A stretch of DNA of 64,000 nucleotides from Abditibacterium sp. (GTDB taxonomy: Bacteria; Armatimonadota; Abditibacteriia; Abditibacteriales; Abditibacteriaceae). The notes beneath the pieces were generated by a model. That model was not told where the DNA came from, did no database searches, and saw only the letters and a list, made by a program, of their open reading frames with translations. A program made the translations under genes and the position numbers. The first letter of the stretch is position 1. Each line of letters opens with the position of its first letter. This document shows, in pieces, positions 6,085 through 59,224 of the stretch. The stretch is from NCBI GenBank assembly GCA_965246885.1, contig OZ251992.1, positions 2,624,001 to 2,688,000 of the forward strand. The letters are read 5' to 3'.

Positions 6085-6252
6085 AATGGTTCATCGGCAG
6101 AAGCCAAGCGTTGGCGCGGCTCTCTCAACGACTGAAAGAGCCGCGCCGATGATTGAGCGGGTAAAATCAGTCGTTGAAAGAGCTGCGCCGATGATTGATT
6201 TATGCGGGCCGACGGTTCACGCGACTCTTTCAATGGTTCATTTGGCTGGTTC
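6085..6252. repeat. Degenerate 21-bp tandem array (8 units)
   Basis: Units begin AATGGTTCA/AAGCGTTGG/AACGACTGA/GATGATTGA/AGTCGTTGA/GATGATTGA/GACGGTTCA/AATGGTTCA at exact 21-bp steps. Confidence 0.75.
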
Positions 6253-8820
6253 AACGAGCGCCACAGCCATGCGGTTCGGGTCGAGATAGCGTTGCGCGGC
6301 GGCGCGGACTTGGTCGTTGGTCACGGCGTTGATGCGAGCGGCATAGGTGGCCGCGTCGCGGATGCCCAAGCCCAGTAGTTCCGAGGAAGCGAAGTCGCGC
6401 GCTTGTTGGTCGGGCGTTTGGAGTCCGATGGCGTGTGTGGCGACGCACATCGTTTTGGCGCGCGCTAACTCTTCGGGCGAGAAACCGCCGTCGCGGGCGC
6501 GAACTACCTCTTCGCCGATGATGGCCCGCGCGCGTAGCCGGTTAGCGGGCGTCGAGGCGGCGTAAAGCACGAACATCCCGGTCTCTATTCCCGGCCAGTC
6601 GAAGGCGTTGGCGTCATACACCAGTTGCTCCTCGCGGAGCCTACCGAAAATGCGGCCCCCCGGAAGCCCTGCGCCCGATAAACCGGAGTCCAGCACGTCC
6701 AAAGCGAAGCGGTCGGGGTCGCCGATTTTGATGCCGGAAAAGCCGATGAACTGCGCCGACTGGACGATACCTTTTTGATAGTAGGTACGCCATGTGGCAT
6801 TAGAAAGCGCGACCGTCGCGGGAGGCGCTTTAGATGCGGGGGCCGCTGCGCGGAAGGAGCCGAACAGTTGCCGTGCGAGCGCCGCGACTTGCGCGGGCGA
6901 AATGTCGCCCACGACGGACACGACGGTAGATTTGGGCTGCAAAACGCTGTTCCGATAGGCCACGACATCCTCTCGGCGGATGGAACGGACGCTCTGCGCG
7001 GTGCCGTTTTGCGGGCGACCGTAGGGGTGGGAGCCGAACACGAGCCAGCGCAAAAGTCGTCCGGCGGCGGCGGTCGGGTCGTCGTCTTGAACCGCGATGC
7101 CCGCGAGCGTTTGGGCTTTGATGTTGGCTAACTCGGCGTCGGGGAAAGTCGGGCGCAGCGTGCAATCGGCCACAAGCGTTAGTCCGCGCCGCCAGTCGGT
7201 CGCCAGCCAACTCGACGCGACGCCCCACGAGTTGTAACCCGAAAACCCATTGAGGGAGCCACCCAAGTTTTCGATGGTCTCGTTGAGTTGCCCCGCGCTT
7301 TGCCCCGCCGCGCCGCGCGTTAGGAGTTGCGCCGCGACATTCGCCACGCCCGCTTTATTCGGGTTTTCGAGGCGCACGCCGCCCAGTCCCGTCACGACAA
7401 TCGAAACTGTCGGCGCGCTCGTCGTGCGCTTGACAACGAGGCGCACGCCGTTGGGAAGCGTAATCAGTTGGGCGTTCGATGGGGGCAAGGCGCTCGCCGC
7501 TTTGGAGAGTTTTGTGGGCGCGATGGGCGGATGAACCGCCGCGACGGTGAGGCCATCGGCGCGCAGATATTGGCGGGAGACGGCTTGGATTTGGGCTGCC
7601 GTCACTCCTTGAATGCGCTCGACATAGGAGGCCGAAAAGTCGGGGTTGCCAGTCCCCATTTCGTCGAGGGCGGCGCTCTCCGCCTCGTTTTCGACGCCCT
7701 GTTTGTTGAAGATATACCGCGCGCGAATGGCGGTTTTGGCGCGCGCCAACTCGCTGGCCGTAACGGGCGCCTCGCGGACGCGCTCGATTTCGCGCCCAAT
7801 CGCCGCTTCGACGCGCGCTTGCTTGGCGGGTTCGAGTTGGGCCGAGACCGTGAACGTTCCGGCATCGTAGTTGGGCGTATCGGACGCGGCGGAAATGTCG
7901 GAGACGAGGTTTTGGTTGTCCCGGAGCGTGCGCACCAAGCGCCCAGTTTGGCCCCCGCCCATGATTTGCGCGAGAACATCGAGCGCATACAAGTCGGGCG
8001 ATTGCAAGGGCACGGTGTGCCAGCCAACTTGCAAGTAGGTCGCGCCGATTTGCTTGGTTTGCTCGGCGCGGCGGGGGGCGATTTGGCGCGGCTCCCCGGC
8101 CAAGGCGGGCGTGTGCGCGGCGCCGCGCGGCCAGTCCCCAAGCTCCTTGGCGACGGCCTGCATTATGGCGGTGTCGGACACGTCGCCCGCGACGCTCAAG
8201 ACGGTGTTTTCGGGGGTGTAGTGGTCGTGATAATAGCCGAGGATGTCGTCGCGCGACAGGGCATCGAACTGCGCGCGAAAGCCAATCACCGGGAAGCGCG
8301 CGGGGTGGACGCGAAAGGCGGTGGCTTGCCACAGTTCGGAAACGGCGGTGGCGGGGTCGTCCTCGCCGATGTTCATCTCGTTGTGAATGACGCCCTGCTC
8401 TTGCCGGACGCGCGCGTCGGGAAAATTGGCCCGCCGCATCATGTCACCGAGGACATTCAGCGCCCGCCCGAAGTAGGGCGCCGCCGTCGTAACATGATAG
8501 GCAGTCACGTCGGTGGAGGTGTAAGCGTTCGAGACACCGCCGATGGCTTGCAGTTCGTCGTCTATCTGCGGCCCGGTGCGCGTTGTCGTGCCCTCAAACA
8601 GGGTGTGTTCAAACAGGTGCGACAAACCGGCGCCCAGATACTTGTCCTCGTAAATCGAACCCGTCCGCACGTAAAACCGAACCGCCACAACGGGCGCGCT
8701 CGTATCCCCGCGCGTCAAGACGGTGAGGCCGTTGGGCAAGACGTGCTTATTTGTATTGGGCGCGGCGACGGCGGATGTGGCGCCAAGCAGGAGGGCGAGA
8801 AAAAGGGTAAGGCGGGACAT
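6238..8820 (-). CDS. M16 family zinc protease (two fused M16 units), exported
   Basis: Signal peptide; inverted zinc motif HLFEH; SNAYTS; second M16 unit lacks HxxEH. Confidence 0.93.
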   Translation of the reverse strand: MSRLTLFLALLLGATSAVAAPNTNKHVLPNGLTVLTRGDTSAPVVAVRFYVRTGSIYEDKYLGAGLSHLFEHTLFEGTTTRTGPQIDDELQAIGGVSNAYTSTDVTAYHVTTAAPYFGRALNVLGDMMRRANFPDARVRQEQGVIHNEMNIGEDDPATAVSELWQATAFRVHPARFPVIGFRAQFDALSRDDILGYYHDHYTPENTVLSVAGDVSDTAIMQAVAKELGDWPRGAAHTPALAGEPRQIAPRRAEQTKQIGATYLQVGWHTVPLQSPDLYALDVLAQIMGGGQTGRLVRTLRDNQNLVSDISAASDTPNYDAGTFTVSAQLEPAKQARVEAAIGREIERVREAPVTASELARAKTAIRARYIFNKQGVENEAESAALDEMGTGNPDFSASYVERIQGVTAAQIQAVSRQYLRADGLTVAAVHPPIAPTKLSKAASALPPSNAQLITLPNGVRLVVKRTTSAPTVSIVVTGLGGVRLENPNKAGVANVAAQLLTRGAAGQSAGQLNETIENLGGSLNGFSGYNSWGVASSWLATDWRRGLTLVADCTLRPTFPDAELANIKAQTLAGIAVQDDDPTAAAGRLLRWLVFGSHPYGRPQNGTAQSVRSIRREDVVAYRNSVLQPKSTVVSVVGDISPAQVAALARQLFGSFRAAAPASKAPPATVALSNATWRTYYQKGIVQSAQFIGFSGIKIGDPDRFALDVLDSGLSGAGLPGGRIFGRLREEQLVYDANAFDWPGIETGMFVLYAASTPANRLRARAIIGEEVVRARDGGFSPEELARAKTMCVATHAIGLQTPDQQARDFASSELLGLGIRDAATYAARINAVTNDQVRAAAQRYLDPNRMAVALVEPAK

Positions 8821-8830
8821 GATTTAATTT

Positions 8831-8940
8831 CAAGCGAATAAATTCGCAGCCAGCAGCATCGTCGGCCTTCGCCGACGGACTTCCAAGTTACCGCGTCGGC
8901 GAAGGCCGACGATGCTGCTGGCTGCGAATTTATTCGCTTG
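8831..8940. repeat. REP/REPIN-like perfect inverted repeat, 47-bp arms
   Basis: 8831-8877 is the exact reverse complement of 8894-8940; each arm holds two internal hairpins. Confidence 0.92.
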
Positions 8941-8954
8941 GATAATATGGCGCA

Positions 8955-10478: not shown

Positions 10479-10818
10479 CGTCGCCACCTCCCATGCCGCC
10501 CGCTTCGCCTTCGCCCGCGAGGAGGGCTTCCATCTCTTCGCCCAAGTCTTCGCCCGATTCCTCGCCCATCTGCTGGCCCATCTCGCGGGCGAAGCGGCGC
10601 AGCGCCTTGGGGTCGTCGAAATCCTGCGATTCGAGCGAGTCCGCGACGGCGTCCATGCGCGCATCGTCGGAGCGGCCCCGGCTAAAGCGCGACATAATCT
10701 TGGAAAGGTCGGCGCTTTGACACGCCGGACAATGCGGCGCGGCTTCGCCCGACACCACGCCCGTTAAAAAGGTGAAGCGCTTGCCGCACGCGCCGCACCG
10801 AAACTCAAACAATGGCAT
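10462..10818 (-). CDS. FmdB-family zinc ribbon protein
   Basis: MPLFEFRCGACGKRF...CPACQS...KIMSRF. Confidence 0.88.
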   Translation of the reverse strand: MPLFEFRCGACGKRFTFLTGVVSGEAAPHCPACQSADLSKIMSRFSRGRSDDARMDAVADSLESQDFDDPKALRRFAREMGQQMGEESGEDLGEEMEALLAGEGEAGGMGGGDDGAIY

Positions 10819-10880
10819 ACGAGCCAAGTTTAAGAGGGCGCGGCGAAAGGTTCGGCGCCCACGTTTAAACTGCGGCCCCA

Positions 10881-13238
10881 ATGCGAGTACTTTTAGAACA
10901 CGACCCCTTCGAGCGCGGCGCCGAGCGCGCTTTCGAGCAAGCCGGACTGTGGCCCGCGCGTTGGATTCACCTGCCCGACTCGGACGTGCGGCCCTTTTTC
11001 GCGGCCTATAAGTGCGCCTTTTCCCTGCCGGAAGCGCGGACGGTGCGCGTTCATGTGTCGGCGGACGAGCGGTATCGCTTGTTCCTCGACGGGCAGCGCG
11101 TCGGGGTTGGCCCGGAGCGCGGCGACGCCCTCGCGTGGTGTTTCGAGAGCTACGACCTCGACTTGGCGGCGGGCGAGCATTTGTTCGTCGCGCAAGTTTG
11201 GAGCTTGGGCGAAGGCGCGGCGTTCGCGCAGATGAGCGTGCGGCACGGCTTTTTGCTGTGTCCCGACGACGCCGAACTCGTGCCGCTTTTGGCGACGGGA
11301 TATGCGCCTTGGGCGGGCAAGGTTCTGGGCGGTCTCGAATCGCGCGACAAGCTGTGCGCGTGGGGCACGGGCGACAAACTGCGCGTGAACGGCGCGCTTT
11401 ACCCTTGGGGCTTCGAGCGCGGCGAGGGGGATTGGGGCGCGGTCGAGATGGCCGGAACGGGGGCGCGGGCCGGAGCCATTCCCAACGAGCGGCAAGTTCA
11501 TTTCCTCGTGCCCGCCATGCTGCCGCCGATGCTGGACGAGCCGCGCGTCGGATTTCGCGCCGTTCACGTCAGCGCGACCCCGGCGCCGACCTCGGAGGTG
11601 CCCTTGCGCAACGTGGACGATTTTGCCGGGGAACGCGGGGCGTGGCAGGAGTTTCTGAGCGGCGCGCGCGCGCTGGACATTCCGCCGCACACCACGCGGC
11701 GCGTGCTGGTCAAGCTCGACGATTACTTTTGCGCGTTCCCCGAACTGACGGTTTCGGGCGGGGCGGGCGCGGCGGTGCGCATCCATTGGAGCGAGGGGCT
11801 GTTCGAGAATCTGACCGACTGGAACAAGGGGCACCGCGACGAGTGGGAGGGGAAATTCTTTACCGCGATGTGGAACAAGCGCGACGGCGTGGGCGACGAG
11901 TTCCTGCCCGATGGGGGGCAAAATCGCACCTTCTCGACGCTGTGGTGGGAAGCGGGGCTGTGGCTCGAATGGCAGATAGAAACGCGCGACGAGCCGCTTT
12001 GCCTCGAACGCTTCGCGCTCCGCGAGACGCGCTATCCGCTTGAAATGGAATCGCGCTTCGCCTGCGACGACGCTGAGGTGACGGCGATGATTCCCATCAT
12101 GGTGCGCGCGCTTCAGATGTGCGCGCACGAGACTTACATGGATTGCCCGTTCTACGAGCAACTGATGTATATCGGCGACACGCGCTTGGAAGTGCTGCTG
12201 ACGTATGCCTTGACGGGTGACACGCGGCTACCGAAGAAGGCGCTGCGGGCGTTCGACCATTCGCGGGTGCGGTCGGGGCTAACCCAAAGCCGCTACCCGT
12301 CCAACGTCTTGCAAATCATCCCGCCGTTCTCGCTGTGGTGGGTGTGCATGGTTCACGACTTCGCACTGTGGCGCGACGAGCCGGAGTTCGTGGCGTCGCT
12401 GCTGCCCGGCGTGCGGGCGGTGTGCGACTATTTTGCGGGTTTGATTCGGGCGGAGGATGGCTTGATGGGCGCGCCGGACGGCTGGAACTTCGCGGACTGG
12501 GTCGGCATGACCGCTTTCCGCCGCGAAGGGGAGCCGCACTGGGAAAGCGGCATCCCGCCCGAAGGGTCGCGCGGCGTGTCGGCGATTCTCAATTTGCAGT
12601 TCGTCCTCGCGCTGCAAGCCGCCGCGCAGGTCGAGGAGTGGCACGGCGAAGCGGAGTTGGCCGCCTTGCAAAATCGCCGCGCCCTCGCGCTCTTTGAGGC
12701 GGTGCAGACGCACTTCTGGCGCGAGGAGCGCGGCCTGTTTGCCGACGACCTGAGCAGCGCGCACTGGAGCGAACACGCGCAGTGTCTCGCCGTTTTGACG
12801 GGGCTTTTGTCCGAGGAGCGCCGCGCCCAAGTCGAGCGCGGCTTGTTCGAGGCCCCCGACTTGGCGCGCACGACCATCTACTTTTCGCACTACCTCTTCG
12901 AGGCGTGCCGCGTGTTGGGGCGGATGGACAAGTTCTTCGCGCGCCTCGAAGATTGGAACACACTCGTCCACAACGGCCTCAAAACCACCATCGAATCGCC
13001 CGAACCGACGCGCTCCGACTGCCATGCGTGGGGCGCGCATCCCTTGTTCCACTTCTTCGCGTCCGTCGCGGGAGTGCGCCCGACCGCGCCGGGGTTCAAA
13101 CGCTTCCAATTCGCGCCGCAATTGGGCACGCTCGGCCACATCGAAGGCGAACTGCCGCACCCGCAAGGCACCATTTCCTTCCGCGTTTCCACGCATGAAA
13201 CGCACGTGTCCGCGCCCGCAGGCGTGGAACAGGATTAA
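10881..13238 (+). CDS. Alpha-L-rhamnosidase-like glycoside hydrolase (GH78)
   Basis: VSADERYRLF, ETYMDCPFYEQLMYIGD, RSDCHAWGAHP motifs. Confidence 0.9.
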   Translation: MRVLLEHDPFERGAERAFEQAGLWPARWIHLPDSDVRPFFAAYKCAFSLPEARTVRVHVSADERYRLFLDGQRVGVGPERGDALAWCFESYDLDLAAGEHLFVAQVWSLGEGAAFAQMSVRHGFLLCPDDAELVPLLATGYAPWAGKVLGGLESRDKLCAWGTGDKLRVNGALYPWGFERGEGDWGAVEMAGTGARAGAIPNERQVHFLVPAMLPPMLDEPRVGFRAVHVSATPAPTSEVPLRNVDDFAGERGAWQEFLSGARALDIPPHTTRRVLVKLDDYFCAFPELTVSGGAGAAVRIHWSEGLFENLTDWNKGHRDEWEGKFFTAMWNKRDGVGDEFLPDGGQNRTFSTLWWEAGLWLEWQIETRDEPLCLERFALRETRYPLEMESRFACDDAEVTAMIPIMVRALQMCAHETYMDCPFYEQLMYIGDTRLEVLLTYALTGDTRLPKKALRAFDHSRVRSGLTQSRYPSNVLQIIPPFSLWWVCMVHDFALWRDEPEFVASLLPGVRAVCDYFAGLIRAEDGLMGAPDGWNFADWVGMTAFRREGEPHWESGIPPEGSRGVSAILNLQFVLALQAAAQVEEWHGEAELAALQNRRALALFEAVQTHFWREERGLFADDLSSAHWSEHAQCLAVLTGLLSEERRAQVERGLFEAPDLARTTIYFSHYLFEACRVLGRMDKFFARLEDWNTLVHNGLKTTIESPEPTRSDCHAWGAHPLFHFFASVAGVRPTAPGFKRFQFAPQLGTLGHIEGELPHPQGTISFRVSTHETHVSAPAGVEQD

Positions 13239-13286
13239 CCCCACCGCCTTTTCCAACTGTTCTCGCGCCCGTTCGATATGCCACCA

Positions 13287-13475
13287 ATCGAGCTCGATTC
13301 ACGGCAGATCGAACTCGATGCGCGACATATCGAACTCGATGCGTGGCATATCGAACTCGATTCACGATAAATCGAGTTCGATTCATGGCACATCGAGTTC
13401 GATTCGTAAGACATCGAGTTCGATTCACGGCGAATCGAACTCGATGCGCGGCAAATCGAACTCGCGCAACGATTA
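13287..13475. repeat. 21-bp tandem array: 12-bp quasi-palindrome ATCGARYTCGAT plus 9 variable bp (9 units)
   Basis: Units at 13287, 13308, 13329, 13350, 13371, 13392, 13413, 13434, 13455. Confidence 0.95.
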
Positions 13476-13571
13476 ATCGGAGCCGATTATTGGTTGCGCG
13501 ACGGGACGGAAAAGCAGCGTGGCCCCGGTGAAGAGTTCACCAGGGCCACGCGAAAAGGGGACGAGGAGGGG

Positions 13572-14081: not shown

Positions 14082-14231
14082 AACGACGCGCGGAGAGTCA
14101 AATCGCGGGCCAACGGGCTGCAAGAGGGGGAGATTGGGGGACGGGGAGAAAGGGAGAAGTGGCAGCGCGGCATTCTCCCGCTCTTGCCCTTTCCCCCTCC
14201 CGAAGAGCGGAGCGCCTTTAAACTGGGCGTC

Positions 14232-15476: not shown

Positions 15477-15479
15477 ATC

Positions 15480-15980: not shown

Positions 15981-15988
15981 GAGAAAGC

Positions 15989-16945: not shown

Positions 16946-16959
16946 TGTGGAAGGCGGCG

Positions 16960-17901: not shown

Positions 17902-19869
17902 ATGCGCTATGAAGTGCAGGAGCGATTGGGCGCGGGCGCGCTGTGGATTGTCTACCGCGTGCGCTCGGCGCCATCGGGTCGTAACGGGCGCGCCGGAGCG
18001 GGTGCGAGCGTTGCACTCAAAGCGCTGCGCGGCGCGGCCAATCGGCATTCCCGCTTGCCCTTGGCCCTGAGCGCGGCGGCCACTCACTGGTACGACCTCT
18101 CGCATCCGCACCTCGCCCCTCCGCTCGAATGGGGCGTCGAAAGCGGCACGACCTTCTTCACCTCCAAGCTCCTGTCCGGCGGCTCCCTCCACACCCGCTT
18201 GGAACGGGGGCCACTGCCCCCCGACGAGGCGCTGCAACTGCTCCGCTCGCTCGCGGGCGCCTTGACGTATTTGCACGCCAAAGACTTCGTGCATGGCGAC
18301 GTGCGCCCGCGCCAGATTCTGTTCGATTCCAGCGGATTTCCCATCCTCACCGATGGCGGACAAGCGGGCGCTTTGGTGCAAGCGGGCTTGGTCTTGTCCG
18401 ACTTGCAACCCGATACCGCGCTCTTTCTGGCGCCCGAACGCTCGGCGGGAACGGCCCCGACGCCCGCGAGCGACGTCTACTCGCTCGGCGTCACCTTTTA
18501 CGCCGCGCTCACGGGGCGCGTGCCGTTCGAGGCGTCCTCGCCCCTCGCCATCGCCGCGCGCCACCGCCACGAAACGCCGCCTCCGCCTTCTTCCCTCAAC
18601 TCGCGCATCTCGCCCGAACTGGACGCGCTCGCCATGCGCTTGCTCGCCAAAGTCGCCGACGCGCGCCCGTCGGCGTTTGAATTGGAGCGTTTATTGGCGC
18701 CGCGCGCGGTCGCGCCAACGGCTGACGCAGTCGCGCCGACGGTTCCCGCAGTCACGCCGACCGTTGCCGTAGCTGCGCCGACGGCTGCCGCAGTCACGCC
18801 AACGGTTGCCGCAGTCACGCCAACGGTTGCCGTAGCTGCGGCGACGGCTCCCAAGCGGCGCCCGCTCGATGACTTGGTTCAGCAGACTCTGCACGCGCAA
18901 GACGAAGAAACGCGCGAAAAAGCGATGAAGAAACTGAAGCGGCGCCACGTGTGGCGCGAGTTCGGCGGCATGCTCGGCGCCATTTTCTGTCTCCTCTTGC
19001 TCGTGAGCGGTGGCGTGGGCGGCGGGCTGTGGGCGTACAACTCCGTGTTGGCGCAAATCCCCAAGCAGGTGATTGTGCCCGCGTATCTGGGCAAAACGCA
19101 AGATCAAGCCAAGCAGATACTGGCCAAAGCTGGGCTAACGCTTAAAGTCACGCGCGAGTCCTACGACCCTAAAGTGCCCGCCGGAACCGTCATGGACGGC
19201 GACCCCGCGCCGGGCCGCGACGTGCGCTCCCGCCGCGAAGTCTTCGTTACCGTGTCGGCGGGCCAAGCGCCCATCAAAATGGTGGACTTCTCGCAGCTTA
19301 CGCTCGACCAAGCGCGCACCATCATCTTGCAGCACGGCATGAAGCTTGGCTCCATCGCCGAGCAATACGACGACAAAACCCCGCGCGGCGCGGTCATCGG
19401 CCAATTCCCCGAACCGGGCGACTCGTTCTCGCGCGCGCAGGCCATTACGCTCGTCGTGTCGCGCGGCCCGCAGCCCAAAGAGTTGGACGCGCAGAACGGG
19501 GAGTTCGTCTTGCCCGACCCGCTCGCCGACGCGCCGCCCGCCCCCGCTCAGGCGCCCTTCGACACCGGCGACGCCTTTGCCCCGCTTGAACCGGCGGCGG
19601 GCGCGCCCGCTCCCAACCAAACCCAGCCCAACGGCCAAACTCTCGAAACCCGCTCAGCGCGCGTGAGCGTTTCTATTCCCAAGGGTGGCGGCACGCAACT
19701 CGTGCGCATCATCGTGCGCGACGCGGGCGGCGAGCGCACCGTTTATCAAAAAGCGCACGCGGCGGGCGACCAGTTCAAGAAAAAAGTTACCGTCTCGCGC
19801 GCGGCGGGCCAGAAAGCGTTGGTGCGCGTTTTCGTCGGCGATAATCTGGCGACCGAAGACCAGATTTAA
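17902..19869 (+). CDS. PknB/PrkC-like Ser/Thr kinase-fold protein with TM and two PASTA domains (catalytic motifs degenerate)
   Basis: VALK, HGDVRPRQ, TDGG, APE, SDVYSLG; TM; PASTA repeats VPAYLGKT and MVDFSQLT; start uncertain (17764 possible). Confidence 0.85.
   Translation: MRYEVQERLGAGALWIVYRVRSAPSGRNGRAGAGASVALKALRGAANRHSRLPLALSAAATHWYDLSHPHLAPPLEWGVESGTTFFTSKLLSGGSLHTRLERGPLPPDEALQLLRSLAGALTYLHAKDFVHGDVRPRQILFDSSGFPILTDGGQAGALVQAGLVLSDLQPDTALFLAPERSAGTAPTPASDVYSLGVTFYAALTGRVPFEASSPLAIAARHRHETPPPPSSLNSRISPELDALAMRLLAKVADARPSAFELERLLAPRAVAPTADAVAPTVPAVTPTVAVAAPTAAAVTPTVAAVTPTVAVAAATAPKRRPLDDLVQQTLHAQDEETREKAMKKLKRRHVWREFGGMLGAIFCLLLLVSGGVGGGLWAYNSVLAQIPKQVIVPAYLGKTQDQAKQILAKAGLTLKVTRESYDPKVPAGTVMDGDPAPGRDVRSRREVFVTVSAGQAPIKMVDFSQLTLDQARTIILQHGMKLGSIAEQYDDKTPRGAVIGQFPEPGDSFSRAQAITLVVSRGPQPKELDAQNGEFVLPDPLADAPPAPAQAPFDTGDAFAPLEPAAGAPAPNQTQPNGQTLETRSARVSVSIPKGGGTQLVRIIVRDAGGERTVYQKAHAAGDQFKKKVTVSRAAGQKALVRVFVGDNLATEDQI
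18709..18855 (+). repeat. In-frame 21-bp tandem array (7 units) encoding a V/A/P/T heptad linker
   Basis: GTCGCGCCAACGGCTGACGCA, GTCGCGCCGACGGTTCCCGCA, GTCACGCCGACCGTTGCCGTA and so on. Confidence 0.9.
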
Positions 19870-19875
19870 CGTTCC

Positions 19876-24072: not shown

Positions 24073-24198
24073 CGGTCAGCGCACATAGTTCTTTCGTTGG
24101 CATAACTAATTCCGCGTTCGCTTATGCGCGCCGACCGTTCGCCGGGTTCTATCCGTCGTTGGCGCGACTCTTTCTTTCGTTCGCCCATGCACGTCAAC
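24073..24198. repeat. Degenerate 21-bp tandem array (4 clear and about 2 decayed units)
   Basis: CGTT(C/G)GC at 24115, 24136, 24157, 24178. Confidence 0.65.
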
Positions 24199-24213
24199 CA
24201 TCCAGCGACATCT

Positions 24214-28448: not shown

Positions 28449-28537
28449 CGCGGGCGACAGTTTGCCCAAGCCGCGCCCTTAGCGTTCGGAGTCACAAGGC
28501 CAGCGAGAAGCGCCGTTTCCCATCAGAAATCGCTCGA

Positions 28538-28726
28538 TAGCTCACCGAAACAGGCCAAGAGAAGACCGTGACACGCCGCGAGACGACCGAATCATGCCAA
28601 TAGATAATAGCAACACGCCGCGAGAAGACCGAATCATGCCAAGAGACGACCGCGACACGCCAATAGATAATAGCAACATGCCACGAGAAGACCGAAACAG
28701 GCCGCGAGACGACTGAATCATCGGAC
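28538..28726. repeat. 21-bp tandem array (9 units)
   Basis: GAGAAGACCGAATCATGCCAA and TAGATAATAGCAACACGCCGC variants at exact 21-bp steps. Confidence 0.92.
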
Positions 28727-28812: not shown

Positions 28813-29667
28813 ACCAGTGGTGCGGGTTTGCGGTGAGGCCACAGGTCAGCGTAATCTTGATGGTGACCAAACCTCAAGGAGCGACCTGTGACCCTTCAAG
28901 ATTTTACCGTGTCTCTGTTTTGCCGTGTGGACGACGCCTTGGCTGCCCTCAAACACCCCTTAGCCCATCTTCATCCCAGCGAAGTGGTGACCTTGGGCCT
29001 GCTTCACGCTTTGAAGGGCGGGGGCAATCGCGCCTTTTATCGCTGGGCTAAACGCGAGTTGAAGGAGCTTTTCCCCCGCTTGCCAGAGCGCACGCGCTTG
29101 TTCCGCTTGTTCGAGCAACACGCAGAGCAAACCCAGCATTTTCTCGCCGACCCCACCTTGTTTGGCGTGTGCGACAGCTTAGGTATCGAACTGTTGCACC
29201 CGCGCCGCCAAGGACGTAGCCCCCGCCAGATCGGGCGCAAGACCCTCTCCAACCACCGATGGATCGTGGGCGCCAAGTTCGTTGTGCTTTGCAACAGCCA
29301 AGGTCAGATCGTGAGGTGGCTTTGTGCCGGTGCCGCGTGCCATGACAGCGCCTTCCACGCGATGATTGACCGCGTGCGCGAGGAGATGATCGTGTTGAGC
29401 GACCAAGGCTTTCACGCCCACGAAGGCGACCCGGACAACTTGCTGGTGTGCAAGCGCGGCAAGTGGAACGAGCGGATGCTCATTGAGACCATCTTCTCGC
29501 TCTTCACCCGGGTGCTTGGACTCAAGAGGATGAGCAACCGCACATGGCCCGCCCTACGTGCGCGCCTCGCCTATGTGGTCGCCGCCTTCAACATCTGCAT
29601 CAACTGGACGGGCAAAGTCAAACTCCAACTTGCCGACTTCGCCCTCTGAACTACCCGCACCACTGGT
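28813..29667 (+). mobile_element. IS982-family insertion sequence, 855 bp
   Basis: Perfect 15-bp TIRs ACCAGTGGTGCGGGT (28813-28827) and ACCCGCACCACTGGT (29653-29667); TGATA duplication at 28808-28812 and 29668-29672; 5'-AC ends. Confidence 0.9.
28888..29649 (+). CDS. IS982-family DDE transposase
   Basis: FCRVDD, SEVVT, VCDS, LSDQGF, RMLIETIFS. Confidence 0.85.
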   Translation: MTLQDFTVSLFCRVDDALAALKHPLAHLHPSEVVTLGLLHALKGGGNRAFYRWAKRELKELFPRLPERTRLFRLFEQHAEQTQHFLADPTLFGVCDSLGIELLHPRRQGRSPRQIGRKTLSNHRWIVGAKFVVLCNSQGQIVRWLCAGAACHDSAFHAMIDRVREEMIVLSDQGFHAHEGDPDNLLVCKRGKWNERMLIETIFSLFTRVLGLKRMSNRTWPALRARLAYVVAAFNICINWTGKVKLQLADFAL

Positions 29668-29709
29668 TGATAAACTGCGGCGAAATCTGGCGCGTGTTGC
29701 GGAAACCTT

Positions 29710-31314
29710 ATGGGATCACTTTATCTGAATAGATTATCTTCTGATGAGCGCACTTCTCTAATTGGGAGGTTGCATTCTGCCCAAGGCGGTAAATGCTTCA
29801 TTTGCGAAGCGCCAATTGATTTAGCCGTTCATAAAGATGCGATTGACATTGATCATGTTATCCCGACCAAGTTGGGTGGTAAAGATGACCCCATCAATTT
29901 TGCTTTAACTCATGCCAGTTGCAACAGATCAAAGCAGGCTTCCAACCTCATTGTTGCTCGTGTCCTCCAACGTTTTTCCTCAATCAAAAGCTCTATTGCA
30001 TCCGAAAATCGAGGCCCTAACTTAGATGACGTTTTGAGGTATCATGGCGGCTCCAAACATGAGATTCGATTTGTGCGGGAGCAAAATAAAGTCAAATTTG
30101 CGCTGCCGGAAATCGGTCGTGAAGAGATCATAGAACTCGATATTTATAAAGATGAGTTAAGCGACTTTGAGTATGTTTTTGCCAATCTGCCCATTACTCA
30201 TATTTTTCACGATGAGAAAATAAATCCGCGCTCCATCGGACAAAACATCTCTAAAATGGTTGAAGAATTTTATTTGAAGCGCCCACAACTTCATTTGGCA
30301 CTGGGATGGATTGAGATTGACAGTGAGATTAAAACTAAGGTTCGCATCTTTGATGGACAACATAAGGCTGCTGCTCAGGTTCTATTAGGAATCAAAGAAA
30401 TACCGGTTCGCATATTTCTTAACCCCGATGCAGAAGTTTTGTTGGCGACTAACACTCGCGCCGGAACAACTCTGAGTCAAGTTGCCTTCGACAAATCGGT
30501 TCAAAGACATTTAGGTAGCGCCCTATACGTTGATCGCGTAGAGCGTTATCAGAGAGACCTCGGTTTGCCAGAAGATGACTATAGTTTTTCGGAGCAGGAC
30601 TTAGTGAGGCACTTCAAGGGCGAATCGCGCGAGATGAAACGATATATTTTGGACGCGGTTCGTGACACAATCACCCACCACCCGGATAACAAACTCAAAG
30701 ACTACATGGATTTTGGCGGTCGAGGAAAAGAAAAGCCACTGTCATACAGCACTATTGAGAAAACATTCTATTCGTTCTTCATCTACCAAGATGTCTTGGA
30801 AACATCGTTGGATTTTCAAATGGAAGAAGGCGAGAATCCGCGAGAACTTGAAAAACGACAAATTCTGGGATTGATGAACATTATTGCCGAGGAAGTCTTC
30901 GTTGGTAAATTTGATAGCGACATCGGCACTAATCGAGTTGAGAATAGAATTCAGGGAGGCGAGAACCTGCCGCTGGAACATATCCGCGCGTTCCGATTGA
31001 GCAAAGAAGAGATTCTATATAATTGGCTTGGTTATGTAGATCAAATTATTCAGAACTACTTCATCATGCAAGGTGTTCTTATCCAAAAGGAGAAGCTGTT
31101 CCAATACAGTTTCCCTGAGCCTTTATGGGAAAGAATTCGCACGTTCACCAAAAACATGAGCAATTTGCCCGTGTGGATTAATAAAGACCTTTCATCTACA
31201 GTGTTTGGAGGGAAGCAGAATTATAAATACTGGCAGGGCATTTTCGAGAAGGGAAAAACCCAACAAGGATTACAGGTTTTGGCCGAACCAATAAACCTGA
31301 TGAAGATGATCTAA
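29710..31314 (+). CDS. HNH endonuclease fused to a DGQH-motif (ParB/DndB-like) domain; candidate defence protein
   Basis: CFIC...IDHVIP...GG...[24 protein letters not shown]; visibly AT-richer than flanks. Confidence 0.8.
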
Positions 31315-31515
31315 TTCGTGACGCAACGCCCCAAAACGACCTAACAAAGCTTTGCCCCAACCTCTTACGGCTTCGCTTGTTCCTCGCTTCTCGCTTCGGT
31401 TGTCTCTGTTCGGCGCTAAGGACTTGACTTCGTGCGTTTGGCCACTTCATCGCTTCTTCGTCTCGGAACGGCGCACTTCTATTTATTCCACCGCGCCGTC
31501 AAAGGAGCCAAAACT

Positions 31516-32322
31516 ATGAATGCAGGACAGCAGCGCCGGGTGGCGCTTTTGGGGCGGGTGAGCCAGTTCGCCCTCACGCACGCGAGCGCCTTTCCCGATG
31601 GGAGTCAGGCCAAAACCTACCTCCAAGAAGTGAACAATTGCAACTACAACGCGAGTCAATTCGGCACGCAACAAACGGCGGGCAGCAAACTGAGCAAAGC
31701 CGCCACCGCGCAAAAGAAGATGGGGACAAAGCAACTGCGCGCCAACCTCGCGCAACTGGTCGGAACGGCCAAGCAAGCCTTCAAAGGACAGCCGCAAATC
31801 GCCAATCAGTTTCGGATGCCGCGCGGCGGAACACCCAAACTGTTCAACGCGGCGAACGCGCTTGTGGCGCTTTGCACGAAATACAAAGCGCAACTCGTCG
31901 CCTACAACCTGCCCGCCGACATGGAAGGGCGCATTGGCGGCAACATCTACGCGATGCAAAGCGCGATGAACACGCAAAGCGCGGGCGGCCAAAGTCGTTC
32001 GGGCGGCACGAAGACGCTCGAAATGTGTCTGCGAAAGGGCCTGTCGAGCGTGCGCTCGCTCGACCCCATCGTGAAGAACTTCTTCGCGGGCCAAACCGAC
32101 GTTTTAGCGCAGTGGGCCACCGCCTCGCGCCTTCAAGCCGCGCCCAAACGCAAGCCCAAACCCATCCCGCCCACGCCCGTGTTCACGATGCTCCCCACCG
32201 CACTCCAACCCGAACCCGCGCGCGTCGAAGCGCCCCGCGCCGCGCCGTCTCTGGTTGACCACACCCCGCTCATCCTCGGCGCCAACGGCGTCGCGCTGAA
32301 TGGCGTGAATGGGCATAGGTAG
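31516..32322 (+). CDS. Hypothetical basic alpha-helical protein
   Basis: AAGGAG RBS then MNAGQQRRVALLGRVSQF; host-like codon usage; Pro-rich tail. Confidence 0.75.
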   Translation: MNAGQQRRVALLGRVSQFALTHASAFPDGSQAKTYLQEVNNCNYNASQFGTQQTAGSKLSKAATAQKKMGTKQLRANLAQLVGTAKQAFKGQPQIANQFRMPRGGTPKLFNAANALVALCTKYKAQLVAYNLPADMEGRIGGNIYAMQSAMNTQSAGGQSRSGGTKTLEMCLRKGLSSVRSLDPIVKNFFAGQTDVLAQWATASRLQAAPKRKPKPIPPTPVFTMLPTALQPEPARVEAPRAAPSLVDHTPLILGANGVALNGVNGHR

Positions 32323-41342: not shown

Positions 41343-41452
41343 CTTACCAACGCGCCGCCGACATAAGCGACTCGTTCACCGGGTTAATTCTTCCGTCCGC
41401 GCAGCTAATTCTTCCGTCCGCCGACATAATTGGCGTAGCAGTTAGTTAATTC
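41343..41452. repeat. Short 21-bp tandem array (about 5 units)
   Basis: TAAGCGACTCGTTCACCGGGT, TAATTCTTCCGTCCGCGCAGC, TAATTCTTCCGTCCGCCGACA at 41364, 41385, 41406. Confidence 0.7.
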
Positions 41453-43905: not shown

Positions 43906-44010
43906 GTTTGTGTGGTAGCACGCGCCCTCAGTGATATGAAATCACCGGCATCCGGCTTCGCCAAGCGTCCTGCCGGACGCGCTGCCCTTGCTATTCCTCA
44001 AACTCATCCC

Positions 44011-48379: not shown

Positions 48380-48380
48380 A

Positions 48381-48506
48381 TGGCGCACATGCGTCATTTG
48401 GCGCCGCACGTGCTCCGACGGCTGGCGCACGTCTGGCAAACGCTCACCGATGCACGCCAACCGTCGGCGTACGTCTGGCACTCCCTCACCGGTGCGGGCG
48501 CTCCGT
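48381..48506. repeat. Degenerate 21-bp tandem array (6 units)
   Basis: TGGCGCAC, CGCCGCAC, TGGCGCAC, TCACCGAT, CGGCGTAC, TCACCGGT at 21-bp steps. Confidence 0.7.
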
Positions 48507-48539
48507 TCCCAGACCCCGGCGGATGAATCGCCGCGTTAA

Positions 48540-52304: not shown

Positions 52305-52309
52305 ACGGG

Positions 52310-53743: not shown

Positions 53744-53830
53744 GGCGGCAAAAGACAGGCAAAGGCCAAGCGGAAAAATAAAGGATGGCGGGCGCTTAAA
53801 GCCAAAGCGAAAGCGTCCGCCAAACGGGGG

Positions 53831-56800: not shown

Positions 56801-58855
56801 ATAAACGAAGTGCCCGCCCGCCGTAAAGGTGCACGCGCCATGCGCGGGCGCCCGTGCCAAAATGCTGACAAGAGCGGCAGTTTCGGCGGCGCTGTCCGCG
56901 TCGTTGACGGGCAAGGTGCCCACAAGCGGCGTTTCTTCGGGGGTCGTGAAGACCGTCGAGATGGCACCGATGGTGGGCGCGTGGTTGACGTGCGCGACAT
57001 GAAGCAGAACGGGAATCGGGTTCGAGGTGCCCGCGCTGTTGGTCGCGGTGTAAAAGAAGGAGTCGTCGCCGTAATACAGCGCGGCGGGGGTATAGGTGAA
57101 ACCCCCATCGGCGCCAACGGTCACTTGACCGTGCGACGGGCCAGATAGCAGCGCGGCAGTTTGCGGCTGACCGTGCCCATCATCATTGGCGAGCAGACCC
57201 AGAGCGGGCACTGCGAGTGGCTGCTCTTCATTTAGGCTGTACTCGTCCGATGCCCCCACTGGCGCGATACCGACGGTGAAGTTGTGGCTGACGAGCGGGC
57301 TTGCATTTCCGTAGCGATCGTAGGCGCGCGCCGTCAGGGTGTATTGCCCCAACGGAAGTTGCGCACCCGTTGGCAAGCCCGTCGTGCGCGCCCAAGTGGT
57401 ATCGGAGCGTGGCGCGAGATAAGCCACGCCCGCCGCCCACGCCGTGCCGTTCCAGTACTGCGTCGCGGTGCCGACGATCCGGCTCAGCGTCACGTCCACG
57501 CGCCCGACACCGCTTGGAACCGCCACCCCAGTTGCCGCGTCGGTCGCGGTGCCCGCGACCCGGCTCAAGCTCCGAATATAGGCCCCGTTAAGCGGCGCGT
57601 CGAGCGTCACCAAAGGCTTGGTCTTGTCTATCGGAACGACCGAGAAGGTGTTCGTCACGCTCGCGGCGTTGCCACTGCGGTCAACAGCCGAAACGCGCAC
57701 GCTGTATTTGCCAGAGGGAAGGTTTGCGCCCGATGGCAAGCCGGTGTTGATGTTCCAAACCCCGTTGGGTGACGAAAGGAGCAGCTTGGTGCCCACGCTC
57801 CACGCCGTTCCGTCCCAACTCTCGGTCGCGCCCGTCCACGTCCGGTAAAGTTGCACCGTCACGCGCTGGAGACCACTTGCCCCCTGACCGGGAGCGGGCG
57901 CATCCGTCGCGGTGCCCGCCACCAGCGTCAGTTCCGTCAACGCCGCATTCGCCGCAGGAGAAGCCAGCGCGATTGTGGGCTTGGTCGTGTCGTTACCAAC
58001 CGTGATGTTCCGGGCGGCGCTCGAAGCGTTGCCCGCGCGGTCAAGGGCGGTCGCGCGCAGGGCGTACAACCCTATTGGCAAGTTCGCGCCCGTCGGCAGT
58101 TGCGTGCCGAAACTCCAACGCCCCGCGCTGATTTGACCCGGCACAAAAGCGTCTCCCACGCTCCAATCGGTGCCGTTCCACGTTTCCGTCGCGCCGCTCC
58201 ATGTGCGCGTCAAGCGCAGTTGCAGTTGGGCGATGCCGCTTCCGCTTGCGCCGTCGCTACAAACACCGCCCGCGCCCGACAAATCGGGCACCGCCGCGAC
58301 GGGCGCATCAATGGTCAGCGCGGGCGCCGTCGCGTCCACGCGAAAGTGCGACGACGCGCGGCCAGTCTGCCCCTTGTCGTCACTCACTTGAACATCGAGC
58401 GCATATGGCCCGTCGGGAAGCGTGCCCGCAGCAAACGAGAGCGGTAGCGTCCACGCGGTGCGCGCGCCGTTCAGCGTTGCAGTTAGCGGAGCCGGAGCCG
58501 CCGCCCAAGCGGTGCCCGACCAGACCAACCCATCGCCGCGCGTCAAAAGCGGCGACACACCCACGAGCGCCCGTCCGCGCCCTGCGCGCACCCCACCCGC
58601 AAGCGAGGAAAAAGAGCGCACGATCTTTCCATCGGCCACAGACGAGATGGATACGGTGGGCGGCGAAAGGGGAATCGGCGTGGCTGTGGGCAGTGGCGTC
58701 GGCGTCGGCTTGGGCGTCGCCGTTGGCCTTGGAGTTGCAGTGGGTTTTGGAGTCGGCGTGGGAGCCGAAAACGCGGGCGGAGTGGCCAAAACTGCGCACA
58801 GGGCCGCAGAGAACCCGAAAAGCACGCTCAATTTGCCAGAAGAAAGGGATGGCAT
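53831..58855 (-). CDS. Large exported multi-Ig-domain surface protein
   Basis: Signal peptide; PTPT linker; four W.GT.W Ig-like repeats; three tandem-95/cadherin-like repeats (FTYTP, GDDSF); four DIT..ITG.GW.T repeats; C-terminal Big_1-like domain. Confidence 0.85.
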   Translation of the reverse strand: MPSLSSGKLSVLFGFSAALCAVLATPPAFSAPTPTPKPTATPRPTATPKPTPTPLPTATPIPLSPPTVSISSVADGKIVRSFSSLAGGVRAGRGRALVGVSPLLTRGDGLVWSGTAWAAAPAPLTATLNGARTAWTLPLSFAAGTLPDGPYALDVQVSDDKGQTGRASSHFRVDATAPALTIDAPVAAVPDLSGAGGVCSDGASGSGIAQLQLRLTRTWSGATETWNGTDWSVGDAFVPGQISAGRWSFGTQLPTGANLPIGLYALRATALDRAGNASSAARNITVGNDTTKPTIALASPAANAALTELTLVAGTATDAPAPGQGASGLQRVTVQLYRTWTGATESWDGTAWSVGTKLLLSSPNGVWNINTGLPSGANLPSGKYSVRVSAVDRSGNAASVTNTFSVVPIDKTKPLVTLDAPLNGAYIRSLSRVAGTATDAATGVAVPSGVGRVDVTLSRIVGTATQYWNGTAWAAGVAYLAPRSDTTWARTTGLPTGAQLPLGQYTLTARAYDRYGNASPLVSHNFTVGIAPVGASDEYSLNEEQPLAVPALGLLANDDGHGQPQTAALLSGPSHGQVTVGADGGFTYTPAALYYGDDSFFYTATNSAGTSNPIPVLLHVAHVNHAPTIGAISTVFTTPEETPLVGTLPVNDADSAAETAALVSILARAPAHGACTFTAGGHFVYTPSALYSGDDSFDVQVSDGVALSNVATVPVTVTFVNHPPVIQMPATTFTTPQNTLLHLLLHAADAEGDALTYRITALPSHGTLNGSGAAVDYLPAQDYVGDDTFTFVANDGQADSAPATISIHVQSGGGHSGDADGVDLSIRRPWLGSASWVGEGVVNATGQDQTIAGTTYGNTYQGIPALFELKLKNTGTVARQFTLLGPGYGSDGWITNYQVFGADGTQDYSAGWQITTDQGWLTPSLSPGATLVVEVNVAAQSWVTPLPTNTTLLFQAFVATGQPLATSPTDAVAANVTYQQTAQYLADLRIVSNTSGTARGADSYNPLPDAPNAYNQFETVSDVAPTGVTRAYTVQLQNNGLAADSFRLSLVGAVPAGWTVSLFDAATGGNDITSQLTGTGWQSRSVAAGAEMDLRLECTPSVAASLTSALPASVRAISVHDGNSVDVVTASVTRAKATLDLQVAPTSAKDTGVGAGVLNATGAGQTFAANTNVGQKVTAYVSGLSSIAGAPIILQAPPALAGWDAHYFDDASGNEVTAAITGAGWTTTTFQDGYYAPFRVPTLRVEITPVAVGTTAPLDSLLISGTAAQENNTSDAVGIAVTRNSVVDLMIASDLSHPYVGQGIANTTGANQRVALSQVEGGTRRMSFNLRVENDGLAPDSFQLTAPGSGDGWIVHYFDALQGGTGGNDITAAITGVGGVGGWTTPLLQPGDGYEIHMEVDPDPANPGQVFRNFLVSAASVADPTATDAVVAGVAFQKIVGVEYSDCQCDGGHWMPAPLLLPGDPTTQPGIPVKSGQILGLRGVPALPDFPWPLDPQVKPLWTNGSDTVTGPTYWLQTSGHRQVISAESGNTVSVALIPDQDVPHKYSVDLVVITPYLRIGGGADGQTTLTATVTDETGATQSGMTVRFRAYFADGTSAGNLGGSGADHNLAVTDAGGVATISLASDGREGPVMVEAIALLNGAPAPVFLEPGEPQVGPQLLGFYDAHPAPTTP

Positions 58856-59056
58856 GGGAACAAATGGGCGAAAAATAGGGATGGCTCACGCCCATAATGA
58901 CAAGAAGGCGCAAACTTTCAGAGGGAGCATAGCAGGTGAAACCAACGGCGGCAAGGGGATAACTGCGCCGCGTCTCCAAAAGACTCGCTCACTCTTAGCC
59001 CTGTCTTACAGCACAAGCGGCACCGCCAAGATTTCCGCCTTTCCCGCCGCAAGGGG

Positions 59057-59224
59057 CGTCTGCCACTCGTCCACCGCCCTCCCGGAATCATCCGCCGCCC
59101 TCTGTCGTTCTCTCGCCGCCATGCGCCACCGGGCGACAAACGTCTGCCATCCCTTCACAGACGTCTGCCACTCGTCCGCCGCCCTTCCGGAGCCGCCCGC
59201 CGACGTCTGGAAGTGCATCACCAG
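59057..59224. repeat. Degenerate 21-bp tandem array (8 units)
   Basis: CGTCTGCCACTCGTCCACCGC (59057), CGTCTGCCATCCCTTCACAGA (59141), CGTCTGCCACTCGTCCGCCGC (59162). Confidence 0.8.

What the first reader, a model, noticed from the sequence alone, without database searches (positions are those of the whole stretch)
6085..59224. Dispersed class of 21-bp-period arrays with different sequences, mostly placed just after stop codons
Seen: eight arrays (6085-6252, 13287-13475, 18709-18855, 24073-24198, 28538-28726, 41343-41452, 48381-48506, 59057-59224) share a 21-bp period and about 5-9 units, but mostly not sequence. Six begin at or within about 55 bp of a stop codon (M16 peptidase, GH78, argG, cdaA, PhyH, histidine kinase). 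Units are mosaics of a conserved part and a variable part. Known: ordinary slippage VNTRs have no reason to converge on one period; 21 bp equals 7 codons and two B-DNA turns. Inference: one mechanism generates or selects these arrays, for example heptad micro-ORFs, phased protein-binding tracts, 3'-UTR RNA elements, or scars of an unrecognised mobile or templated-synthesis process. This is my best candidate for an undescribed system here.
Basis: partly seen in the sequence, partly recalled or inferred. Interest (0 to 1): 0.85.

Follow-up and report, generated by a model that had tools for sequence, protein, structure and literature searches.

The report
Self-avoiding 21-base DNA array ladder
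The eight repeats are real and belong to about 310 arrays with a strict 21-base beat that keep several kilobases apart along this bacterium's whole chromosome, even inside genes; they likely are docking rows for a two-fold symmetric DNA-binding protein that would organise the chromosome, and an unstudied gene family that carries such an array in front of it is the candidate.

Summary
All eight arrays are real. Period 21 is a genome-wide spike (204 windows against at most 14 for unrelated periods). About 310 arrays of 5-10 units lie on the main contig. They fit a published, unexplained class: constant-length 20-21-nt bacterial satellites. Beyond the papers read, they avoid each other: spacing CV 0.50 against 0.96 by chance, 17 gaps under 4 kb against about 87, no gap above 31 kb. 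This holds across sequence families, without shared homology, in either orientation and for copies inside genes. Seven of the eight window arrays fit one degenerate template. Stop-codon proximity is real, but divergent gaps and in-gene copies argue against 3'-UTR elements, and micro-ORFs are not supported. Two unnamed helical-plus-FN3 gene families carry their own 21-bp array upstream (18 of 24 loci); family A is predicted to dimerise. Their arrays match only about 10 dispersed arrays, and DNA binding is untested. Congeners hold 2 arrays in 580 kb. A second genus shows similar density and weak avoidance; Paenisporosarcina indica has arrays but uneven cover. Best reading: phased protein-docking platforms, one per roughly 10-kb stretch (0.5). 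The scan noted this before in other windows of this genome.

The parts
6072..6257 (.). 21-bp array, about 9 units, over and behind the stop of the M16 peptidase gene (6238-8820, minus strand); cluster 18, fits the shared template
   Evidence: crossed without differences by a run contig
13271..13488 (.). 21-bp array, about 10 units, between convergent genes (GH78 stop at 13238); singleton cluster, does not fit the template
18705..18852 (.). 21-bp array, 7 units, in frame inside the PASTA Ser/Thr kinase gene (17902-19869, plus strand); takes the place of a variable linker, about 10 residues longer than in the closest orthologues; cluster 19
24073..24201 (.). 21-bp array just behind the argG stop (best-scoring core 24115-24201); congeners have a hairpin with a T-run here and no 21-bp array; cluster 18
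28535..28721 (.). 21-bp array, about 9 units, between divergent genes (argF start, IS982 transposase); cluster 13; shares an exact 30-mer with an array about 98 kb away
41343..41452 (.). 21-bp array between cdaA and its ybbR-like partner (best core 41355-41432); congeners have 7-bp repeats or a REP-like insert in this gap; cluster 15
48381..48524 (.). 21-bp array, about 7 units, starting 1-2 bp after the PhyH stop, between convergent genes; largest cluster (26)
59057..59222 (.). 21-bp array, about 8 units, about 53 bp behind the hybrid histidine kinase stop; largest cluster (26)

Best explanation
The arrays are members of a genome-wide set of about 310 strictly 21-bp-phased, mutually avoiding DNA tracts, which likely serve as docking rows for a two-fold symmetric DNA-binding protein and would give the chromosome one organising platform about every 11 kb. 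Shown: the period, the spacing, the fixed symmetry axis, the random orientation, the in-frame copies and the restriction to this species within its genus sample. Inferred: (1) each unit binds one dimer, two helical turns from the next, so sequence can drift while the register cannot; (2) 5-10 units make one working platform; (3) a second platform within about 5 kb adds nothing or is harmful, while gaps above about 30 kb get filled, through a gene linker if need be; (4) the 21-bp geometry comes from cassettes in which a helical-plus-FN3 gene sits behind its own array, and copies spread from there by in-register recombination and local re-amplification. The binder of the main template group is not identified.
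For: Spacing: CV 0.56-0.60 on the unfiltered peak list against 0.94-0.95 +/- 0.05 for random intergenic gaps, lowest 0.79 in 1000 draws. Final ladder of 309: mean 11.3 kb, CV 0.50 against 0.96-0.97, 17 gaps under 4 kb against 87-90; largest gap 30.9 kb against at least 42.7 kb in 2000 draws. 54 weak arrays found afterwards fall into gaps: 11% within 3 kb of a known array against 42%. In-gene copies of DNA families obey the rule (1 of 22 within 3 kb of an intergenic array, 37% expected; median-distance p=0.001); other in-gene heptad repeats do not (12 of 29). One ladder for all families: same-cluster neighbours 44 against 47.7 +/- 5.1. Not homology-driven: about 85 of 93 expected pairs under 5 kb would share under 12 bp, yet only 16 pairs exist; REP-like (26 loci, CV 0.93) and prepilin repeats (43, CV 1.13) are not spaced. 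Register: identity 0.61, 0.60, 0.59, 0.56 at lags 21, 42, 63, 126; 68 phase shifts against 10,101 substitutions, control detection 218 of 238. Dyad: 81 of 260 arrays have inverted arms (mirror control 6), and 53 of 58 axes in template-like arrays coincide. Orientation is random to genes. Partner genes: 18 of 24 loci have a 21-bp array upstream, 2 a 22-bp one, 0 of 24 downstream. Family A is a long helix plus an FN3 domain; homodimer score 0.85, best of 3 controls 0.00, mark reached by 20 of 30 solved pairs and 1 of 23 single chains, contacts agree at least 88%, pLDDT at least 86. Second genome G058: 36 arrays in 500 kb, 3 pairs under 5 kb against 7.6 (p=0.011; p=0.07-0.11 at 2-4 kb).
Against: No binding is shown. 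The candidate proteins are not basic (median net charge -1 over 142 relatives) and match no known DNA-binding fold. The two cassette arrays of this genome resemble only 7 and 1 other arrays at similarity above 0.5 and score low on the main template (1.4, 1.8), so about 200 template arrays have no identified cognate gene. The cassette is not sufficient: G162 and G243 carry it and show 0 arrays in 80 kb each. It is not detectably necessary: P. indica has 29 arrays in 540 kb and no family A or B gene with these profiles. In P. indica cover is uneven (CV 1.34) although close pairs are scarce (1 against 4.5 under 3 kb, p=0.03). Congeners live without the ladder (2 arrays in 580 kb). Longer arrays do not compensate for wider gaps (rho -0.20). 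No 10.5-bp harmonic in this genome's arrays, so a gyrase-type or wrapping bend code is not supported.
Confidence: 0.5

Rival explanations
1. Selfish spread with immunity: the arrays are non-autonomous passengers copied by an unknown recombinase, and protein bound to an existing array blocks new arrivals within several kb, as in Mu or Tn7 target immunity (recalled). Even spacing would then be a by-product without host benefit.
For: Pair correlation is a hole (7 pairs under 4 kb against about 75) followed by a flat profile, not a lattice. The most perfect arrays avoid neighbours as well as old ones (0 of 18 within 4 kb). A few arrays were copied recently: 9 of 260 share an exact 40-mer, and one 169-bp element with inverted ends occurs twice, identical. 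Species-restricted.
Against: No rve-type transposase in this genome (11 of 12 congeners have one). No excess of flanking direct repeats at 5-7 bp (104/40/12 against 91/37/11); small counts at 8-10 bp are slightly high (7/3/1 against 3.8/1.7/0.1). Shared termini were not seen for most arrays (output partly cut). The kinase array replaces a linker rather than adding its full length. Large gaps are also trimmed.
Confidence: 0.2
2. Protein-free DNA structure: arrays are supercoil sinks (cruciform or slipped strands, shifted by two full turns), and one sink removes the driving force for another in the same topological domain.
For: 45% of arrays are more self-complementary than their shuffles; fixed dyad; RNA-parameter folding z median -1.5 over 60 arrays; exclusion is independent of family.
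Against: Several families are not palindromic (clusters 13, 15, 3). Diverged arrays (identity 0.4-0.6) pair poorly in slipped register yet keep phase and spacing. It does not explain why one gene family carries such arrays upstream.
Confidence: 0.12
3. Uptake or packaging tags: fragments holding an array are taken up or packaged preferentially, and one tag per fragment is enough, which evens the spacing by drive (as recalled for Haemophilus uptake sequences).
For: Orientation-free, species-specific, tolerated in genes. A roughly 42-kb island bounded by a duplicated comM 3' end already holds two arrays.
Against: Known uptake tags are single short words, not 5-10-unit phased rows (recalled). No uptake or packaging machinery was examined here.
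Confidence: 0.08
4. 3'-UTR or leader RNA elements, or heptad micro-ORFs.
For: 111 of 144 arrays between co-directional genes are nearer the stop than the next start, median 15 bp. Some fold. Cassette arrays end 2-260 bp before a start codon, so a leader role there is open.
Against: Divergent gaps are over-represented (60 of 407 against 144 of 1948), 52 arrays lie in genes in different frames and strands, orientation is random, open frames match shuffles, no Rfam match at any array. Neither idea explains kilobase spacing.
Confidence: 0.05
5. Neutral slippage repeats, thinned by deletion between nearby homologous copies.
For: Local re-amplification of single units is evident in the most perfect arrays.
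Against: One period only. Neighbours are mostly non-homologous and orientation does not matter; far more similar repeats sit within 1-5 kb of each other in this genome.
Confidence: 0.05

Closest known systems
Constant-length 20-21-nt (and 52-nt) non-coding bacterial tandem repeats of Subirana and Messeguer (PMC8161180; parts 1-3 of 5 read and word searches of the whole text)
   Same: Fixed 21-nt unit, several families per genome, short shared motifs, mostly non-coding, species-specific, short arrays. The authors note two helical turns and propose a polymerising protein and nucleoid stabilisation.
   Different: The words 'spacing', 'evenly' and 'distance' do not occur in that paper; it names no partner gene. 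Here the arrays exclude each other over kilobases, keep a fixed dyad, enter genes in frame, and have candidate partner families. Their 2020 J Bacteriol paper was not held and may cover some of this.
REP/BIME elements, GTAG and CGTC superfamilies (PMC3733652, passages; BIMEs as candidate domain barriers, PMC6907758 section 17)
   Same: Intergenic, near stops, partly palindromic, sometimes in genes; proposed as topological barriers.
   Different: REPs are stem-loops, mostly head-to-head dimers between co-directional or convergent genes. These are head-to-tail rows on a fixed 21-bp register, common in divergent gaps. This genome's own REP-like family is not evenly spaced.
Plasmid iterons and centromere-like arrays beside the gene for their binding protein (recalled, no call)
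   Same: Phased repeats about two turns apart, sequence private to each gene copy, array next to the gene.
   Different: The neighbouring gene is a helix-plus-FN3 protein with no Pfam or NCBIfam family, not Rep or ParB; hundreds of orphan arrays cover the chromosome.
BrickBuilt minisatellite MITE of Porphyromonas gingivalis (PMC4596501, abstract only)
   Same: Dispersed tandem array of about two-turn units in intergenic DNA.
   Different: One 23-nt sequence with leader, tail and inverted ends, 19 copies, always intergenic. Here 42 clusters, mostly no shared ends, about 310 copies, some in genes.

Membership tests
20-21-nt constant-length bacterial satellites | Constant 20-21-nt unit, at least four repeats | tested here: met
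   290 arrays, median 7.4 units; identity 0.61 at lag 21, 0.24 at lags 20 and 22
20-21-nt constant-length bacterial satellites | Several families of different sequence in one genome, with short shared motifs | tested here: met
   42 clusters, largest 106; GACGTC 73-fold enriched; shared template
20-21-nt constant-length bacterial satellites | Mostly non-coding | tested here: met
   238 of 290 outside my gene calls; no coding signature
20-21-nt constant-length bacterial satellites | Species-specific | tested here: met
   CAGACGTCTG 81 times here, 0-6 in 12 congeners; 2 arrays in 580 kb sampled from 9 congeners, about 47 expected
REP/BIME (CGTC or GTAG tagged) | Stem-loop units mostly as head-to-head dimers, between co-directional or convergent genes | tested here: not met
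   Head-to-tail rows; divergent gaps 60 of 407 against 144 of 1948 co-directional and 34 of 408 convergent
REP/BIME (CGTC or GTAG tagged) | Link to a RAYT transposase gene | tested here: inconclusive
   Four IS200/RAYT-like genes (label from sequence likeness, recalled); one lies directly behind the family B gene, in 1 of 24 cassette loci
MITE (BrickBuilt type) | Shared inverted ends and target duplication | tested here: not met
   No excess of flanking direct repeats at 5-7 bp; shared ends seen for a few pairs only (output partly cut)
Mu/Tn7-type ends with target immunity | Cognate DDE (rve) transposase in the genome | tested here: not met
   0 matches in G000 (92.7% complete), 11 of 12 congeners positive; other DDE families were not searched
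Iteron or centromere-like array | Phased repeats beside the gene for their binding protein | tested here: inconclusive
   Array upstream at 18 of 24 loci, binding untested; true for 2 of about 310 arrays here
Iteron or centromere-like array | Sequence-specific binding of the protein to the array | not testable with these tools
   needs EMSA, footprinting or DAP-seq
CRISPR-like guide arrays | Constant repeat with unique spacers | tested here: not met
   Variable parts recur within and between arrays; no Rfam match at the arrays
Heptamer (7-bp) tandem repeats | 7-bp sub-period | tested here: not met
   Identity 0.28 at lags 7 and 14, background level; one pure 7-bp array is in the catalogue

The most novel reading that the evidence does not exclude
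A new way to build a bacterial chromosome scaffold: a mobile cassette (helix-plus-FN3 rod dimer with its own two-turn array) was domesticated, its arrays escaped and now tile the chromosome with lateral inhibition, one platform per roughly 10-kb domain. That would give the unexplained 21-nt satellites a protein, a spacing rule and a role as sequence-encoded domain marks.
Probability: 0.25. Interest if true: 0.9.

Novelty: new variant of a known kind. Interest (0 to 1): 0.7.

Why it matters
Two open questions meet here. Constant-length 21-nt satellites occur in many bacterial groups and have no known function (PMC8161180). The barriers of bacterial topological domains are also unidentified (PMC6907758, section 17). 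A family-blind exclusion zone of about 5 kb, strong enough to push arrays into coding linkers, is a measurable rule that any model must reproduce. The partner gene family (1653 clusters at E up to 1e-10; no Pfam name) gives a direct biochemical test.

Tried and rejected
Assembly artefact: rejected; arrays are mostly intergenic and run contigs cross six of them unchanged. Expression: no RNA holder listed, so it stays untested. Strain variation: none seen at the arrays in two runs of one study. Heptamer origin: no lag-7 signal. Gyrase-type 10.5-bp bend code: not found in eight encodings. Histone (PF00808) and Lrp/AsnC (PF01037) as binders: 0 of 13 genus genomes; HU is in 13 of 13 and does not discriminate. 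Retron link: the perfect array near the retron locus follows a dehydrogenase-like gene, not the retron genes. A pattern scan of species genomes gave 111 loci, mostly with one array; Williamsia and a Verrucomicrobiae MAG had 1 array in 120-140 kb each. PQLLE-like genes here have no upstream array. No solved relative by sequence; the fold searches cover only residues 138-231, so the helical part is barely tested. Literature: eight searches of the open library found no paper on self-avoiding 21-bp arrays or on the gene cassette; subscription journals are mostly missing, and no supplements were read (the tables of PMC8161180 could bear on spacing).
Full report
1. Observation. All eight arrays are in the sequence with a 21-bp register; refined bounds and scores are. 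The window lies at C1:2624001-2688000 of a 3.56-Mb, two-contig genome. An Atlas hit points to Armatimonadota; the name Abditibacterium comes from earlier notes, not from a test of mine. Period 21 is a genome-wide spike: 204 windows at 60% identity against at most 14 for other periods up to 60 that are not multiples of 21. A statistic corrected for codon periodicity gives 290 peaks against 1-10 for seven control periods. Gene positions rest on my own gene caller (3092 genes, 88% coding), so single starts may be off.

2. Anatomy. The 290 arrays have a median of 7.4 units and cover 1.3% of the genome. Identity is 0.61 at lag 21, 0.56 at lag 126, and at background for lags 7, 10, 11, 14, 20 and 22. 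Units are thus mosaics with little decay along the array. In 238 intergenic arrays I found 10,101 differences from the column consensus but only 68 phase shifts, in 47 arrays and, in the 40 printed, mostly at the edges; an in-memory one-base deletion was detected in 218 of 238. Detection favours in-phase arrays, so this ratio is a strong hint, not a rate. Unit number peaks at 8-9 and falls sharply above 10. The arrays form 42 clusters (106, 41, 31, 15, 11 and smaller). A degenerate template fits 79% of 260 arrays against 2% of shuffles (trained on the same set), including 7 of the 8 in the window. Its strongest word is the palindrome CAGACGTCTG. 81 of 260 arrays hold inverted arms of 12 bp or more (mirror control 6), and 53 of 58 axes in template-like arrays fall on one position of the unit. 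The lattice has two-fold symmetry.

3. Position relative to genes. Contexts: 144 co-directional, 34 convergent, 60 divergent, 52 in genes. But divergent gaps are used twice as often per gap (60 of 407 against 144 of 1948), and template orientation is random to genes (32/35, 26/26, 20/24, 15/12). Avoidance of promoters and ribosome sites explains the pattern better than a 3'-UTR role (inference). In-gene copies of one DNA family appear in different frames and strands. In the window's kinase the array takes the place of a variable linker, about 10 residues longer than in orthologues at 71-73% identity. At cdaA-ybbR and behind argG, none of five congeners has a 21-bp array; they hold 7-bp repeats, a REP-like insert or a hairpin with a T-run.

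4. The main result: mutual avoidance. On the unfiltered peak list the spacing CV is 0.56-0.60 at four thresholds, against 0.94-0.95 +/- 0.05 for random choice among intergenic gaps, never below 0.79 in 1000 draws. For later counts I set aside 30 in-gene arrays outside DNA families (many are ordinary protein heptads; 29 on C1). A profile scan then added 54 weak arrays at about 2 control hits per period; only 11% lie within 3 kb of a known array, against 42% by chance. The ladder of 309 has mean spacing 11.3 kb, CV 0.50, 17 gaps under 4 kb (87-90 expected, at least 63 in 2000 draws) and a largest gap of 30.9 kb (at least 42.7 kb in 2000 draws). Pair correlation shows a hole to about 4-6 kb and is flat beyond: exclusion, not a lattice. 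In-gene family copies obey it (1 of 22 within 3 kb; p=0.001 on the median), the 29 others do not (12 within 3 kb). Among 201 template-like arrays there are 4 pairs under 5 kb against 58 expected; between template-like and other arrays 11 against 31. Neighbours are not of the same cluster more than by chance, share almost no exact sequence, and show no orientation bias; two other repeat families in this genome are random or clustered. Old and young arrays avoid neighbours alike.

5. Other genomes. Nine congeners gave 2 arrays in 580 kb, where about 47 are expected at this density; four other family members gave 0 in 140 kb. G058, another genus of the family, has 36 arrays in 500 kb (16 in 228 kb of unselected contigs) and 3 pairs under 5 kb against 7.6 (p=0.011; p=0.07-0.11 at the three shorter cut-offs tried). 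Paenisporosarcina indica has 29 arrays in 540 kb of one contig. They crowd into one 160-kb stretch, so overall CV is 1.34, yet close pairs are scarce (1 against 4.5 under 3 kb, p=0.03). Short-range exclusion may be general; even cover is not.

6. Partner genes. Earlier notes pointed to genes behind such arrays; I tested this. Two arrays here sit 45-46 bp upstream of unnamed genes: family A (231 aa, C1 525622-526317) and family B (214 aa, C1 1335829-1336473). A search of 301 phylum genomes gave 24 loci including these two. 18 have a 21-bp array upstream and 2 a 22-bp one; 4 have none (two partial matches, one weak match in a long frame, one intact B gene); none has one downstream. Ten of the 18 come from G058, so they are not independent; seven genomes are represented, and a Verrucomicrobiae MAG adds an eighth. 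Each gene copy has its own array sequence. Family A has 1653 clusters at E up to 1e-10 and no Pfam or NCBIfam family. Its model (pLDDT 94.9) is a 41-residue helix with flanking helices and a C-terminal FN3 domain (Z 12.2, rmsd 2.3 A over 89 residues). It is predicted to form a homodimer through that helix, with contacts that read as antiparallel: score 0.85, best of 3 controls 0.00; the mark was reached by 20 of 30 solved pairs and 1 of 23 single chains; runs agree in at least 88% of contacts; pLDDT at least 86. A 41-residue helix is about 60 A and 21 bp about 71 A (arithmetic from standard rise values; I did not measure the model).

7. Limits of the partner idea. The two cassette arrays resemble only 7 and 1 dispersed arrays (similarity above 0.5), and foreign cassette arrays reach 0-5 by the same measure. 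Both score low on the main template. No further paralogue was found in six frames. The proteins are near neutral in charge. G162 and G243 carry cassettes without dispersed arrays in 80 kb each, and P. indica has arrays without a detectable A or B gene. The cassette is a plausible source of the geometry and of about 10 arrays, not a proven binder of the ladder.

8. Mechanism. A fixed register, fixed dyad, free orientation, bounded length and tolerance in genes all point to double-stranded DNA read by a symmetric protein that repeats every two turns (inference). Family-blind exclusion with trimmed large gaps points to one platform per stretch of about 10 kb, the low end of the 10-400 kb range given for E. 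coli topological domains (PMC6907758, section 17). I put this at 0.5. Selfish spread with immunity (0.2) fits the hole in the pair correlation but lacks a transposase and target duplications. A protein-free supercoil sink (0.12), uptake or packaging tags (0.08), RNA or micro-ORF roles (0.05) and neutral repeats (0.05) fit less well. One feature is unexplained: pyrimidine-purine steps recur about every 3.5 bp in this genome's units, while P. indica's show a 10.5-bp harmonic instead.

9. Known or new. The arrays meet all four tested features of the 20-21-nt satellite class (PMC8161180, parts 1-3 of 5 read), whose authors already proposed a polymerising protein and a nucleoid role. They fail the tests for REP/BIME (PMC3733652, passages), MITE (PMC4596501, abstract) and CRISPR-like arrays. 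PMC6749651 (passages) and PMC8625621 (part 1 of 3) added nothing on spacing. Mutual avoidance and the gene cassette were not found in eight searches of the open library; the 2020 J Bacteriol paper could not be read. I measured the spacing before opening earlier notes; one note on this genome reports the same, and three report the partner genes. These are AI notes on the same genome, not independent evidence. Verdict: a new variant of a known, unexplained kind; interest 0.7.

Noticed in passing
window 28888-32322: Low-GC insert (48% at 30-32 kb): IS982 transposase, a 534-aa HNH protein and a PQLLE-like helical gene with a close paralogue at C1 2121768; no 21-bp array within it or upstream of the PQLLE-like gene.
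   Followed up: partly
window about 43930-43985: Half copy of a roughly 135-bp REP-like inverted-repeat element with 26 loci on C1, randomly spaced; copies flank several of the non-template arrays.
   Followed up: partly
G000 C1 668013-668181 and 672899-673067: Two identical 169-bp cluster-3 arrays with an inverted arm and inverted ends enclose four genes (LacI-like regulator to a GDSL-like gene); the only close pair of the ladder with long homology.
   Followed up: partly
G000 C1 about 2527000-2569000: Island bounded by a duplicated comM 3' end, with a 14-kb CRISPR-type array (period about 66); it already holds two 21-bp arrays.
   Followed up: partly
L265, L266, L268 (cdaA-ybbR gap) and L270-L273 (behind argG): Congeners fill the same gaps with other repeats: 7-bp tandem repeats, and a hairpin whose arm resembles the core of the G000 array behind argG. 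Arrays may be seeded on REP-like hairpins.
   Followed up: partly
G000 C1 1335092-1335535: An IS200/RAYT-like gene lies directly downstream of the family B gene; not seen at the other 23 cassette loci. The family A gene sits between a type I restriction-modification operon and an AAA-type pair.
   Followed up: partly
L215 (G003) and L218 (G008): Divergent family A genes in two congeners carry a 22-bp, not 21-bp, upstream array: a natural test of whether protein geometry sets the period.
   Followed up: no
G000 whole genome: No rve-type transposase, unlike 11 of 12 congeners; no Lrp/AsnC or histone match in the 13 genus genomes.
   Followed up: partly
L238:16723-17421 (G058): A third small protein type (232 aa, no NCBIfam match) also has a 21-bp array about 100 bp upstream.
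   Followed up: no
window 63758-63829: tRNA gene, the only Rfam match in the window.
   Followed up: no
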